Source: Candidatus Micrarchaeota archaeon (lineage in GTDB: Archaea > Micrarchaeota > Micrarchaeia > Anstonellales > Bilamarchaeaceae). Taken from it: a DNA stretch of 49,261 bases. Positions 1 to 3,000 of the stretch are shown in pieces; the first letter of the stretch is position 1, and every line of letters starts with the position of its first letter. The stretch lies in assembly GCA_037440825.1 (NCBI GenBank), contig JBBITJ010000005.1, forward strand, positions 1 through 49,261. The letters run 5' to 3'. Position numbers: made by a program.

Positions 1-3000
1 TGGACCACAAGCGAAAGGTCTGCGACGTAGTCCTGGCCGCCGGAGAAGCTCATGTTGTAGAGCTTGTCAGCTATCGCGCTGTTGTTGTTCAGCGAGATTA
101 TCGGCACTGTCTGGTATGCGGTGTTGTTCAGGAACGAGGATGCGGAGTTCTGGGCTGATTCGAGCTCCGCTGCTGGGAGCGGGAACATGAGGAGCATGAG
201 CGGATAGAATATGATGAACGAGATGGAGCATGCGATCAGGAAAGCGCCGAACCTGCGCGAGAGGAAGAAGCTCCTGAGCACGAGCCCTGCGCCGAAAACC
301 ACGCCGAACCAGTTCGAGGAAGCGAAGGAAAGGAGCTGGGCGTTGAGGGCCAAGGCGAACGCTGATGACTGAAAAGAATAGAGGGAATTGGAAAGCTCTG
401 CTGAAACGCCGTCGAGGTTTGCGAGCGGCTGTATCGAGAAGTTGCCGAAATCCATGGAAAGCGTGCGGTAGTAGCCGACGTTGCTTTGCACGCGCACCAC
501 GTCCTGCGAGAGACTGAAGGACTGCTGGGATGTGTGGTTTATGGTGCAGAGCGCGTAGTCCGCAGGAGAGGTGTTGGCAGTGCAGTTCAATCCCGCGACC
601 TCTGAAGGCGCGAGTTCGGTTCCGACCTCGAGCACCAATAGGGAGAGCCCTACGGAAAAGCCGAGTATCGCCGCGTTTACCACGGATTGCACGAGCTCTT
701 CGGTGCCGAACCGCTCAAGCTTCTTCAATGAGAAGGCGCGACCCAGCCCTAGCGCGATTCCGCCGATTATGATGGAGATTATTATTGCCGTGCCTGTTAT
801 ACCCTGCCAGCCGGAGAGGAGTTCGGCCATAATGCTCCCTGGATCACGTCAGGATGCCTTGGGACGTGCTTGCTATGGCAGGCGCTGCAACTGAAATGGC
901 CGCGATTATCACGCCGCCTATGAACATGCTCACTGCGGCAGTGGTGTATTTGCCGCGCGCCTCCGCTGGCTGCATCTGCGCGAAGCCGTAGATTATGCCG
1001 CTGAGTATGATCAGGATGACGGAAAGCGTGGGTGCTATGCTGCTCAACGAACCTTGTATCCCTTCAAGGATTGTCTGCAGAGCCATGGTTTCTATTCTGA
1101 AAAGCGGTTTATAAATATGAGGGTAACGAGGGGAAGAAAAACATATATATAGATTATTGGCGACTAAATATACAAGTGGTTGTGTGGAAAGGCAGTACAC
1201 GATGCTTTATATCGATTACGGGGGCAACGCGGAATTCCTTGAAATAGTCGCGGTTCCGGAAATGAAGAAGGTACTGGAAGTTAAGTTCGGGTTCGTGGAG
1301 GGAGCCGACGCAGGCGTGCGGACGCTGAAGTCCGCGGAAGCGGGGAAGTACGATATGGTGGTCTGCACCACGAGCAAGATAAACAACGGGGGGTGAGCCC
1401 GCAGGAGGTGTTCAGGGCGGCGCTCGAGAACAACAAGGCGTGCACGCTTGTCATCATGTCCAGGGACCCGCGGATGAGGGAGGAATTCCGCGAATTCCGA
1501 GGAAAGGACCTGAAGGAGCTTGCCGAGATAGCCGCTAAAAAGAGGATGGAAATGGACGGCGCTCCTTCGCCCTCGCGCCTCAGGGACGACATTCGCGCTA
1601 TGGAAGCCATCGACAGGACTTTCAAGAGGGTTGCGGAAAGGAAGAGATTCGTGCTGTAGCGATCCGACCTTATCAAAATATAAAAAGGTTCGCGCACCTC
1701 TCTATTCCATGCGAATACGCCTCAGGATCGGAAAAAGCGTGCACGAGAACGCAGGGGCGTATTACGACGAGGCGAAGGAGGCGAGAGAGAAGGTGAAGGG
1801 CGCGGAGAAGGCCATAGACGAGACCCGGTCGGAGATAGCTAAGGCCGAGAAGGAAGAGGCCGCGGAAGAGAGGAGGAGGGCGTCGGAGACCAAGGTCGTA
1901 AGGAAGAAGGCGTGGTACGAGAAATTCCATTATTTCTTCACTTCGGAAGGGAAGCTTGTTGTCGGAGGGCGGAGCGCAGACCAGAACGATTTCGTGTGCA
2001 AGAATTATTTGGAAGAGGATGACTTGTTTTTCCACGCTGACATACAGGGCGGCAGCGCGTGCATATTGAAAGGCGGAATCGGCGCTTCCGAGAATGAGCT
2101 GGAGGAGACCGCGCAGTTCGCCGCGTCTTTCTCCAACGCGTGGAAGAACGGGAACGCGGCTGTTGATGTCTATTGCGTCGGCAAGGGGCAAGTGTCCAAG
2201 CACGCGACGGGCGGATTCATTGCCAGGGGGGCATTTGCGATTGTGGGCGAGAGGAAGTGGTTTAGGAAGGTGGAGCTGAAATTGAAAGTTGGGATTGAGA
2301 ATGGGATTGCGACGGTCCTGCCTGCGAAGTGCGGACGGAAGATGGATAAGGAAGTGGCGATCGTGCCGGGGACGCACGAGAAGGGGGAAATCGTGAAGAG
2401 GCTGGCGAAGATGTTCGGGGTGCATCCGGACGAGGTGCAGAACATACTCCCTGCCGGAAGGATAAGCGTAGCGAAGCAGTAGTTTGTAACTATAAGTACA
2501 ATGCGGCTTGGCTTGTTCTTGCGCTATTTATATAAATCTTGGATTACATCCTAATCTAATCTCATAAAGGTCGGCGGGTTTCAGGATGGCCAAGCGAATT
2601 GAAGTGAAATTCAAGGACGAGATCAAGGACCCCAGGGGCGAACGTTTGGCCGCGCTGCTGCGCACCGAATTCAAGGCAAAGGTCTCCAAGGTCGCGGTCA
2701 TAGACGCCTTCAGCATGGACGCGGACCTGGACGAAAGGGAGCTGGAGTTTCTGGGCATGGAGGTGTTCAGCGACAAGGTCGTGCAGGAATACTCCTACAT
2801 GAAGCCACTCGGCCGGGGCTGGCGGGTGGAGATAGGCTACCGGCCGGGAGTGACCGACAATGTGGGCAAGACAGGAAAGGATGCGATAGGGGACGCGCTC
2901 GGCAAGGAAGTTGATGTATATTCCAGCATGGTGTACGCGATAGACGGCGACATCGATGAAGAGGTCTGCGGCGAATTCGGGAAGAGGCTGGCGAACGAGC

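What a model noticed while it worked through the whole genome (the two positions that open the first line are those of the whole stretch)
3..1200. Operon of VirB2-like pilin, VirB6-like protein and split VirB4: a T4SS/Ced-like module in a Micrarchaeon
C5:3-1200 encodes an 80-aa two-helix pilin-like protein (h0281) and a VirB6-like membrane protein (h0280). By synteny with three relatives, this continues at C9:29050-31849 with a 260-aa protein that has two TM helices and resembles the VirB4 N-terminal domain, a VirB4/CedB-like ATPase (h0506), and a coiled-coil/wHTH protein. A paralogous module lies at C7:18822-24958. Together they look like a reduced type IV secretion or Ced-type DNA-transfer machine, which has not been reported for Micrarchaeota.
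Evidence so far: - The gene order pilin, VirB6-like, 2TM protein, ATPase, wHTH is seen in G044, G021 and G060. The C9 end encodes the last 196 codons of the 2TM protein. - Pilin: ESM Atlas top clusters are 'T4SS pilin domain' at 0.95 and TrbC/VirB2 at 0.92 and 0.91. - h0280 matches the VirB6-like family profile at E 6e-30. - 2TM protein (AF2 pLDDT 73): TrwK/VirB4 takes Foldseek ranks 1-8, 10 and 13. - ATPases: CedD 81, CedB 75 and VirB4-like 68 bits. Orthologues at 64-75% identity occur in all 5 relatives checked.
(Added by a program. Inside this text positions count along the whole contig: contig position 1 is position 1 of the stretch shown here. "Call 12" and the like, gene names such as g00115 and contig names such as C1 are that model's own, and its searches are not shown. 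The text may have been shortened before it was handed on; [...] marks where a part breaks off. The agent that wrote the report below was given it as the finding of a first reader that could run no searches.)

Follow-up and report, generated by a model that had tools for sequence, protein, structure and literature searches.

The report
Minimal type IV secretion-like operon, Micrarchaeota
A tiny symbiotic archaeon carries a conserved chromosomal gene set that looks like a stripped-down bacterial conjugation machine (pilin, membrane platform, two-piece motor ATPase), which may be how these cells exchange DNA or other molecules with other cells.

Summary
On the minus strand, window 844-1086 encodes an 80-aa two-helix pilin and window 3-830 a polytopic membrane protein cut off by the contig end. 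In relatives the operon runs on one contig as pilin, membrane protein, 2TM protein, ATPase, coiled-coil/wHTH, then purD and PCNA. That matches C5 start plus C9 end.

- **Pilin:** VirB2/TrbC-like, but below the curated cut-offs.
- **2TM protein (pLDDT 94):** its soluble domain matches only the N-terminal domain of TrwK/VirB4. The ATPase then covers the rest of CedB. A split VirB4 is well supported.
- **VirB6 likeness:** this rests on a weak full-length fold match and on gene context. No curated profile matches.

The system is chromosomal. Its components were found through the order, and the 2TM family in 177 of 201 sampled genomes of the phylum. No relaxase or coupling protein was found.

A second, paralogous system exists: C7 plus a six-gene array of membrane-protein paralogues on C3. 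It is one cluster in other lineages.

I read this as a third archaeal Ced/Ted-like derivative of type IV secretion. Its cargo is unknown.

The parts
844..1086 (-). Gene for an 80-aa VirB2/TrbC-like pilin (P0002). It has two hydrophobic helices, a conserved loop Q-P-x-E-x-R-G-K and no signal peptide. The stop codon is at 844-846.
   Evidence: ORF and translation. Hydrophobic segments 10-28 and 50-68. Pfam TrbC E 1.2e-4 (22.7 bits, cut-off 27.9) and T4SS_pilin E 2.3e-4 (21.6 bits, cut-off 26.6). NCBIfam Mbov_0395 pilin-like conjugal transfer protein E 2.8e-4. Atlas scores 0.95, 0.92, 0.91 to T4SS pilin and TrbC/VirB2 clusters. Nine of 25 close homologues carry precomputed PF04956, and one is named VirB2 pilin by JGI. 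Conserved columns.
3..830 (-). First 276 codons of a roughly 322-aa polytopic membrane protein (P0001, 'VirB6-like'). Its 3' end is cut off by the contig end. It has a conserved motif LRSFxxSRKxG, two invariant cysteines and many N-x-S/T sites in the predicted outer domain.
1108..1115 (-). TATA-like box TTTATAAA. It ends 22 nt upstream of the pilin ATG, a spacing that fits an archaeal promoter for a leaderless or near-leaderless transcript. This is inferred.
   Evidence: Read directly from the sequence. There are no expression data (one search lists no RNA holder).

Best explanation
This is the first part of a five-gene chromosomal operon. It encodes a minimal machine derived from type IV secretion, of the kind known in archaea as Ced (Sulfolobales) and Ted (Thermoproteales).

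**Proposed working. The homology of the parts has computed support; the steps are inferred.**
1. The 80-aa pilin inserts into the membrane as a helical hairpin.
2. The polytopic VirB6-like protein forms the membrane platform or pore.
3. A VirB4-type motor is made of two polypeptides. One is a 2TM-anchored subunit carrying the VirB4 N-terminal-domain fold. The other is a separate P-loop ATPase subunit. Their genes overlap and are probably translationally coupled.
4. The motor docks under the platform and uses ATP to pull pilin out of the membrane into a VirB2-type tube, to drive a substrate through it, or both.
5. The coiled-coil/wHTH protein that follows the ATPase in both paralogous systems is probably a cytoplasmic adaptor or nucleic-acid-binding partner.

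The machine belongs to no mobile element. It is vertically inherited across Micrarchaeota and has a paralogous sister system in the same genome.

**My odds**
- A machine derived from T4SS: about 0.75.
- DNA as cargo, with import as in Ced: about 0.35-0.4. Exchange of material with the host is nearly as likely.
For: **Synteny**
- pilin, VirB6-like, 2TM, ATPase and wHTH lie on one contig in G005, G032, G024, G019, G028 and G023, which is 6 of 16 loci.
- pilin to ATPase lie together in G031, G039 and G027.
- VirB6-like to wHTH lie together in G021 and G011.
- purD and PCNA follow downstream, as on C9.
- In L018 the genes overlap by 4 and 1 bases.

**2TM subunit**
- The AF2 model has pLDDT 94.1.
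- All 12 listed Foldseek rows at ranks 1-14 are TrwK/VirB4, with prob 0.99-1.00 and E 1.8e-3 to 3.1e-2. The next row has E 0.13 and prob 0.41.

**Colinearity with CedB**
- The C9 fragment matches profile positions 91-198 (E 4e-4).
- The ATPase matches positions 252-574 (E 1e-30, 107 bits).

**ATPase**
- Its best NCBIfam scores are CedB 107, VirB4-like CD1110 89, CedD 73 and VirB4_plasma 63 bits, against HerA 54.
- Walker A and B and the REGRKY motif are invariant.

**Pilin:**

**VirB6-like protein**
- TrwI is the only natural membrane protein that aligns end to end.
- One Atlas neighbour cluster, at 0.91, carries the CedA1 domain in 23% of its members.

**Second, independent linkage of the same families**
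- In L031 and L032, 5-6 VirB6-like paralogues directly precede 2TM-2TM-ATPase-ZnR-wHTH-844aa.
- 9 of 80 loci of the C7 type have a pilin directly upstream of the 2TM gene.

**Core status**
- VirB6-like matches occur in 41 of 41 relatives, 35 of them at E<=1e-13.
- Pilin matches occur in 41 of 41, 37 of them at E<=1e-12.
- The 2TM family occurs in 177 of 201 sampled genomes of the phylum.
- The flanks are housekeeping genes.
Against: - No component reaches a curated family cut-off for a T4SS protein: TrbC 22.7 against 27.9 bits, CedB 107 against 700, VirB4_CagE 46 against 643.
- Pfam CagE_TrbE_VirB finds nothing in the genome. TrbL finds only a noise-level match elsewhere, at C6 (E 0.057).
- CedA matches 1 of 27 members at E 0.48.
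- Against PDB sequences the catalytic domain scores higher with HerA (69 bits) than with a VirB4 (4ag5, 42 bits). A single-sequence search finds only HerA-like chains.
- The similarity between the pilin and the N-terminus of the VirB6-like protein is weak (hhalign prob 49%).
- The join of C5 to C9 is not assembled.
- There are no expression data and no cargo data.
Confidence: 0.62

Rival explanations
1. The same T4SS-derived hardware is not a DNA-exchange device. It is the symbiont's tool for contact with its host. It builds a pilus or a docking channel through which proteins, lipids, nucleotides or other metabolites pass. This would parallel the relaxase-less T4SS of Patescibacteria.
For: - The system is near-universal and vertically inherited in a phylum of host-dependent cells.
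- The sister ATPase is 63-86% identical across 80 loci, which suggests a core function.
- The pilin and VirB6-like families are expanded, as are rvhB6 and rvhB4 in the obligately intracellular Rickettsiales (PMC8035066 passages).
- No relaxase or coupling protein was found.
- Most T4SS clusters of Patescibacteria also lack a relaxase (PMC12102498 abstract passage).
- Cryo-ET of the cultured Micrarchaeon ARM-1 shows thin filaments and an unidentified 21-nm docking barrel in its envelope (bioRxiv 10.1101/2024.05.20.594898 passages).
Against: - The closest archaeal relatives by score (CedB, CedD) belong to a DNA-import system (PMC11868833 abstract).
- A wHTH protein is a conserved partner.
- The cryo-ET authors conclude that the nanotubes originate in the host, not in the Micrarchaeon.
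- No effector or cargo gene is linked to the operon.
Confidence: 0.25
2. The machine is not related to T4SS. It is a membrane-anchored ATPase of the HerA/FtsK superfamily, with lineage-specific membrane partners, that serves another process such as DNA segregation or pumping at division, or envelope or S-layer assembly. On this reading the small two-helix protein and the polytopic protein resemble VirB2 and VirB6 only because hydrophobic helical proteins look alike.
For: - The best PDB sequence matches of the ATPase are HerA proteins.
- DUF87/HerA is the best Pfam hit, at 65.8 bits.
- According to PMC11868833, section 9, CedB-like ATPases were earlier classed in the HerA clade.
- All T4SS-specific scores are below their cut-offs.
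- The VirB6 fold score is within noise.
Against: - The soluble domain of the 2TM protein hits only VirB4, and specifically the N-terminal domain that HerA lacks.
- The ATPase has no room for a HerA-type N-terminal barrel. The DUF87 match starts at residue 39 of 478.
- A separate, ordinary HerA lies next to MCM on C20.
- Pilin orthologues reach TrbC matches.
- The triad of pilin, polytopic protein and ATPase recurs in two paralogous systems.
Confidence: 0.1
3. It is the transfer apparatus of an integrated conjugative element or plasmid.
For: - It has T4SS-like parts.
- Golyshina et al. 2017 speculated about conjugative elements in genomic islands of another Micrarchaeon (PMC5498576 passages).
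Against: - The same neighbours (purD, PCNA) follow the operon in distant relatives.
- The flanks are housekeeping genes: purS/L and NFACT on C5, purD and PCNA on C9.
- The system is present through the order and the phylum.
- The genome, 95.6% complete, gives no match to Relaxase, TrwC or VirD4-type coupling protein profiles.
- G+C content is 0.554, like the rest of the window.
Confidence: 0.03

Closest known systems
Ced system of Sulfolobales (CedA, CedA1, CedA2, CedB, plus CedD and CedE)
   Same: - It is a chromosomal, relaxase-less triad of a VirB2-like two-helix pilin without a signal peptide, a polytopic VirB6-like protein and a VirB4/HerA-like ATPase.
- CedB is the best-scoring curated model for the ATPase (107 bits) and for the 2TM fragment.
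- In Sulfolobales the VirB4 N-terminal domain is also shared out over two polypeptides, CedB and CedD (PMC11868833 section 9).
- The N-terminus of the membrane protein resembles the pilin, as Beltran et al. reported for CedA and CedA1 (PMC9905601 passages). Here that likeness is weak.
   Different: - All scores are far below the equivalog cut-offs (107 against 700 bits).
- The split is of a different kind. Here the whole N-terminal domain with two TM helices is one protein and the catalytic domain is another.
- A coiled-coil/wHTH gene is a fixed member of the operon.
- I saw no match to Ups-type partners; I did not search for them specifically.
- The gene order is fixed in one operon.
- The host lineage is DPANN, not Thermoproteota.
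- DNA import is not shown.
Ted system of Thermoproteales (TedA, TedB, TedC)
   Same: - It is a second, sequence-unrelated archaeal version of the same triad, recognised mainly by structure and profile-profile comparison.
- The pilin gene lies directly upstream of the VirB6-like gene (PMC9905601 passages).
   Different: - TedC has a cleaved signal peptide, whereas P0002 has none. The paralogue on C2 does have an N-terminal hydrophobic leader.
- TedB is a one-piece VirB4.
- Ted loci carry HerA, ParA and Rad50 genes, which I did not see here.
R388 conjugative T4SS (TrwK/VirB4, TrwI/VirB6, TrwM/VirB3)
   Same: - It is the structural reference. The soluble domain of the 2TM protein aligns to TrwK residues 218-381.
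- The membrane protein aligns end to end to TrwI.
- From recall: VirB3 is a small 2-TM partner that is often fused to VirB4. The 2TM plus N-terminal-domain protein has that layout.
   Different: - No matches to relaxase, VirD4 or VirB4 N-terminal-domain profiles were found. I did not search for VirB5 or VirB7-11 homologues.
- Sequence identity is 5-15%.
- This is a single-membrane archaeal envelope.
Relaxase-less T4SS of Patescibacteria (related to MPF-FATA)
   Same: It is a near-universal chromosomal T4SS with VirB2-like pilins, mostly without a relaxase, in ultrasmall host-dependent cells (PMC12102498 passages).
   Different: - It is bacterial and has a one-piece VirB4 that Pfam-type profiles can recognise.
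- I could not test how the two are related by descent.
Rickettsiales vir homologue (rvh) T4SS
   Same: Subunits have multiplied within a reduced genome: five rvhB6 paralogues and duplicated rvhB4 (PMC8035066 passages). Here there are seven VirB6-like genes, six of them in tandem, two split VirB4 sets and two pilins.
   Different: It is a diderm system of 11 subunits with known effectors. The parallel is one of pattern only.
VirB4/TraG-like ATPases linked to the giant SPEARE proteins of Nanohaloarchaeota
   Same: It is the only earlier proposal of T4SS-type parts in a DPANN lineage that my searches found (PMC10266531 passages).
   Different: - There the ATPase domain is fused to a giant Ig-repeat surface protein, next to a one-piece VirB4 with a Pfam N-terminal domain.
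- The passages I read describe no pilin or VirB6-like partner.

Membership tests
VirB2/TrbC/T4SS_pilin (PF04956, PF18895) | Small protein with two hydrophobic helices joined by a short charged loop | tested here: met
   80 aa; segments 10-28 and 50-68; conserved loop Q39 P40 G45 with R/K.
VirB2/TrbC/T4SS_pilin (PF04956, PF18895) | Score at or above Pfam's gathering cut-off | tested here: not met
   P0002 scores TrbC 22.7 bits against 27.9 and T4SS_pilin 21.6 against 26.6. Of 10 orthologues, 3 match TrbC at E<=0.01 (best 2.6e-6) and 2 match T4SS_pilin. Nine of 25 close homologues carry a precomputed PF04956 hit.
VirB2/TrbC/T4SS_pilin (PF04956, PF18895) | Polymerises into a tubular, lipid-bearing pilus | not testable with these tools
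   Needs cryo-EM of filaments from a culture.
VirB6/TrbL/CedA/TedA membrane platform | Match to a curated sequence profile (PF04610 TrbL, NF041796 CedA) | tested here: not met
   TrbL matches 0 of 27 members. The only TrbL match in the genome is elsewhere, at C6, E 0.057. CedA matches 1 of 27 at E 0.48. A profile of the family finds nothing among PDB sequences.
VirB6/TrbL/CedA/TedA membrane platform | Fold like solved VirB6 (TrwI) | tested here: inconclusive
VirB6/TrbL/CedA/TedA membrane platform | Polytopic protein (5-7 TM) whose N-terminal hairpin resembles the cognate pilin | tested here: inconclusive
VirB6/TrbL/CedA/TedA membrane platform | Encoded between or beside the pilin and the VirB4-type ATPase | tested here: met
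   The pilin is adjacent in 14 of 16 loci and the 2TM/ATPase genes in 12 of 16. The best pilin and best membrane-protein matches are adjacent in 23 of 41 genomes (hand count).
VirB4/CedB-type T4SS ATPase | P-loop domain of the FtsK-HerA superfamily with Walker A and B | tested here: met
   DUF87 scores 65.8 bits and AAA_10 58.3 bits, both above their cut-offs. GxTGSGKS and DEAWK are invariant.
VirB4/CedB-type T4SS ATPase | VirB4-type N-terminal domain | tested here: met
VirB4/CedB-type T4SS ATPase | Score above curated cut-offs (CedB 700, VirB4_CagE 643, CD1110 325 bits) | tested here: not met
   Scores are 106.9, 45.9 and 89.0 bits. In the control genomes the CedB model exceeds its cut-off in one of 14.
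VirB4/CedB-type T4SS ATPase | Single polypeptide joining the N-terminal and catalytic domains | tested here: not met
   There are two genes in every locus seen. All but 2 of the 110 representative relatives of the 2TM protein are 317 aa or shorter. A search among longer proteins found none (weak evidence).
Conjugative T4SS of a mobile element | Relaxase and type IV coupling protein | tested here: not met
   PF03432, PF08751 and PF02534 give no match at E<=0.1 in a genome that is 95.6% complete. Other relaxase families were not searched.
Conjugative T4SS of a mobile element | Located on a plasmid or integrated element with patchy distribution | tested here: not met
   Flanking genes are conserved, and the system is present through the order and the phylum.
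Ced/Ted-type DNA import system | Imports DNA | not testable with these tools
   Needs genetics or transfer assays in a co-culture.

The most novel reading that the evidence does not exclude
The two paralogous T4SS-derived systems of Micrarchaeota are the symbiont's half of the DPANN-host junction. One is this operon. The other is the 2TM-ATPase-ZnR-wHTH-844aa cluster with its array of VirB6-like paralogues. On this reading they build the thin filaments, the large unidentified docking channel seen by cryo-ET in the envelope of the cultured Micrarchaeon ARM-1, or both. They would take up host macromolecules. This would be an archaeal counterpart, evolved separately, of the relaxase-less T4SS of the epibiotic Patescibacteria.
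Probability: 0.2. Interest if true: 0.9.

Novelty: new variant of a known kind. Interest (0 to 1): 0.72.

Why it matters
How DPANN archaea attach to their hosts and draw material from them is an open question, and few candidate genes are known. This operon and its sister system give a concrete, phylum-wide candidate: a machine of the conjugation and DNA-import type.

- **It is directly testable.** The cultured Micrarchaeon ARM-1 encodes members of the family, ARM1_0477 and ARM1_0478. That organism has already been imaged by cryo-ET.
- **It extends the known range.** Archaeal derivatives of type IV secretion were known as Ced and Ted in Thermoproteota. This adds DPANN.
- **It shows a new way of building VirB4.** The motor comes from two polypeptides.
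- **It shows a familiar pattern.** VirB6-like and VirB2-like paralogues have multiplied in a reduced genome, as in Rickettsiales.

Tried and rejected
- **Overlap of contig ends.** There is no exact overlap between the C9 end and the C5 start, nor with any other contig end.
- **PDB sequence searches with family profiles.**
  - The membrane-protein profile found nothing.
  - The 2TM profile found only coiled-coil noise.
  - The pilin profile found only TM-helix noise from amyloid precursor protein.
- **Fused one-piece forms of the 2TM protein.** None was found among longer proteins (weak evidence).
- **Complex prediction.** I tried it for the 2TM domain plus the ATPase.
- **The search for related loci with the 2TM alignment.** It failed for lack of a conserved stretch. 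I used the ATPase alignment instead.
- **Pfam PF27251 (CedA1).** It is not in the library held.
- **RNA evidence.** No RNA holder is listed.
- **Laying contigs of the one DNA holder (X1, possibly the source sample).** One contig runs 194 bases past the window's first base. Nothing bridges to C9.
- **Hypothesis that the third ATPase on C20 belongs to the system.** Rejected. It is a longer HerA-type protein next to MCM and scores only 34.6 bits with CedB.
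Full report
**What is there**

The window is contig C5 (1-49261) of an 875,410-base genome in 45 contigs, 95.6% complete.

- **Pilin gene.** On the minus strand, window 1086..844 encodes an 80-aa protein, P0002. It has two hydrophobic segments, 10-28 and 50-68, and a conserved loop between them. It has no signal peptide.
- **Promoter-like element.** A TTTATAAA box lies at window 1108-1115 and ends 22 nt before the ATG. 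I read it as the promoter, which is an inference.
- **Membrane-protein gene.** Thirteen bases after the pilin stop, window 830..3 encodes 276 codons of a membrane protein, P0001. It runs off the contig end. Full-length orthologues are 309-343 aa.
- **Organism.** Public homologues are named hypothetical proteins of Candidatus Micrarchaeota. The Atlas gives Microcaldota as the commonest phylum.

**The join to C9**

The end of C9 carries three genes on its minus strand:
- the last 195 codons of a protein open at its 5' end;
- a 478-aa ATPase whose start overlaps that protein's stop;
- a coiled-coil protein with a weak wHTH-type match at its C-terminus (TrmB E 0.015).

The contig ends do not overlap. 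I examined 16 loci from relatives:

| Arrangement on one contig | Genomes | Loci |
|---|---|---|
| pilin, membrane protein, 2TM, ATPase, wHTH | G005, G032, G024, G019, G028, G023 | 6 |
| pilin to ATPase | G031, G039, G027 | 3 |
| membrane protein to wHTH, pilin elsewhere | G021, G011 | 2 |
| pilin, membrane protein, 2TM; ATPase not adjacent | G003 | 1 |
| pilin and membrane protein only | G029, G035, G030, G038 | 4 |

- In G005, of the same genus, identities to the window's and C9's proteins are 75, 66, 84, 82 and 65%.
- purD follows the operon in G005, G032, G021 and G011, as it does on C9. PCNA follows too in G005 and G032.
- A contig of the one public run that holds this DNA runs 194 bases past the window's first base.

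The join is therefore well supported but not assembled. About 46 codons of the membrane protein and 65-78 codons of the 2TM protein lie in the gap.

**The parts**

*Pilin.*
- Pfam TrbC gives E 1.2e-4 (22.7 bits, cut-off 27.9). T4SS_pilin gives E 2.3e-4.
- NCBIfam's pilin-like conjugal transfer protein gives E 2.8e-4.
- Of 10 orthologues, 3 match TrbC (best 2.6e-6) and 2 match T4SS_pilin.
- Of 25 close homologues, 9 carry a precomputed TrbC hit. JGI names one of them a VirB2 pilin.

*2TM protein.*
- I modelled the complete paralogue from C7 (P0006) with 62 relatives. The model has pLDDT 94.1 and pTM 0.82.
- All 12 listed Foldseek rows from rank 1 to 14 are TrwK/VirB4 of plasmid R388, with E 1.8e-3 to 3.1e-2 and prob 0.99-1.00. 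The next row has E 0.13.
- By sequence the link is faint. CedB matches 5 of 62 members and VirB4_plasma matches 1 of 62.

*ATPase.*
- Walker motifs are intact.
- NCBIfam scores are CedB 106.9 bits over profile positions 252-574, VirB4-like CD1110 89, CedD 73, VirB4_plasma 63, TraC 56 and HerA 54.
- The C9 fragment of the 2TM protein matches CedB positions 91-198. The two genes together therefore cover CedB in order.
- Against this, PDB sequences of HerA score higher (69 bits) than a VirB4 (42 bits).
- All T4SS-specific scores are far below their cut-offs.

*Membrane protein.*
- The model of the G005 orthologue has pLDDT 84.2.
- TrwI/VirB6 stands at Foldseek ranks 3, 4 and 11, but with E 0.036-0.10.
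- No curated profile matches.

I count VirB6 likeness as probable from gene context, but not shown.

**Distribution, and a second system**

- The membrane protein finds a match in 41 of 41 related genomes, 35 of them at E<=1e-13.
- The pilin finds a match in 41 of 41, 37 of them at E<=1e-12.
- The best matches of the two are adjacent in 23 of 41 genomes (my hand count).
- The 2TM family is found in 177 of 201 sampled genomes of the phylum, usually as two copies. This tally includes two unpublished genomes, G062 and G214, both positive. Without them it is 175 of 199.
- It was not found with this query in families f16 (0 of 6) and f20 (0 of 4), nor in most of f17 (2 of 10).
- All but 2 of its 110 representative relatives are 317 aa or shorter.

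The genome holds a paralogous set on C7: 2TM, ATPase, a Zn-ribbon 2TM protein, wHTH and an 844-aa membrane protein.

- In 80 named Micrarchaeota loci this order is conserved. The 2TM gene is present in 75, ZnR in 77, wHTH in 76 and the 844-aa gene in 70.
- Nine of these loci have a pilin directly upstream of the 2TM gene.
- A profile of the membrane protein also hits all six ORFs of a tandem array at G000 C3:6604-13484, with E from 2.6e-20 to 1.4e-4.
- In two genomes of another family, 5-6 such paralogues directly precede 2TM-2TM-ATPase-ZnR-wHTH-844aa.

The same three families are therefore linked twice over.

**Not a mobile element**

- The flanks are housekeeping genes: purS/L and NFACT on C5, purD and PCNA on C9.
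- The genome gives no match to Relaxase, TrwC or VirD4-type profiles.

**Mechanism**

By homology with R388 and with Ced/Ted, I propose the following. The pilin is fed into a tube on the VirB6-like platform by a VirB4-type motor built from a membrane-anchored N-terminal-domain subunit and a catalytic subunit. The wHTH protein acts as a cytoplasmic partner. The computed support is for the homologies. The assembly, the pilus and the cargo are all inferred.

**Literature**

I read passages of:
- PMC9905601
- PMC12102498
- PMC10266531
- PMC5498576
- PMC8035066
- PMC11420986
- PMC7779479
- bioRxiv 10.1101/2024.05.20.594898
- bioRxiv 10.64898/2026.05.20.726742

I also read the abstract and section 9 of PMC11868833.

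Searches found no description of VirB2, VirB6 or VirB4 homologues in Micrarchaeota. The nearest item is the proposal of VirB4/TraG-like ATPases in Nanohaloarchaeota. Subscription journals are not covered by these searches.

**A route to experiment**

Two distant members of the 2TM family are ARM1_0477 and ARM1_0478 of the cultured Micrarchaeon ARM-1. Its envelope shows thin filaments and an unidentified docking barrel. That makes the idea testable.

Noticed in passing
G000 C3:6604-13484 (outside the window): Six polytopic membrane proteins (303-469 aa) lie in tandem. All are hit by the profile of the window's VirB6-like protein, and they share the motif (L)RSFxxTRRxGG. In two genomes of another family such an array lies directly upstream of the C7-type ATPase cluster.
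   Followed up: partly
G000 C2:40601-45464 (outside the window): A second pilin paralogue (110 aa) has an N-terminal hydrophobic leader. It sits beside small proteins whose N-termini look like archaeal type IV pilins and an 894-aa membrane protein with an AAA+ domain. It may be a separate pilus locus.
   Followed up: no
window 405-504: In the one public run that holds this DNA, this stretch inside the membrane-protein gene is covered by several short alternative contigs. Summed depth rises to 73.5 against about 16 elsewhere. This could be strain variation or a repeat.
   Followed up: no
window about 4690-4800: A run of N interrupts the purS/purL gene; it shows as X in the translation. C5 holds 600 N in all.
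   Followed up: no
L036-L115, L031, L032: In 19 of 80 loci of the C7 type the ATPase matches two adjacent ORFs. In the two loci I inspected (L031, L032) the second ORF is 99 aa. So the roughly 125-aa helical C-terminal extension of the ATPase can be a protein of its own.
   Followed up: no
L028 (G027:C14): Here the pilin and VirB6-like genes are followed by a 2TM protein and an ATPase that are closer to the C7 type than to the C9 type. This suggests that modules have been exchanged between the two systems.
   Followed up: no
P0105, P0108 and cluster members: Some distant members of the 2TM family are labelled Candidatus Marsarchaeota archaeon in NCBI. Either those bins are mislabelled or the family reaches beyond Micrarchaeota.
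   Followed up: no
G115:C3:19205-19975 and G188:C1:29664-30422: Matches to the 2TM protein contain one in-frame TAG and one in-frame TGA respectively. These could be broken copies, sequencing errors or recoding.
   Followed up: no
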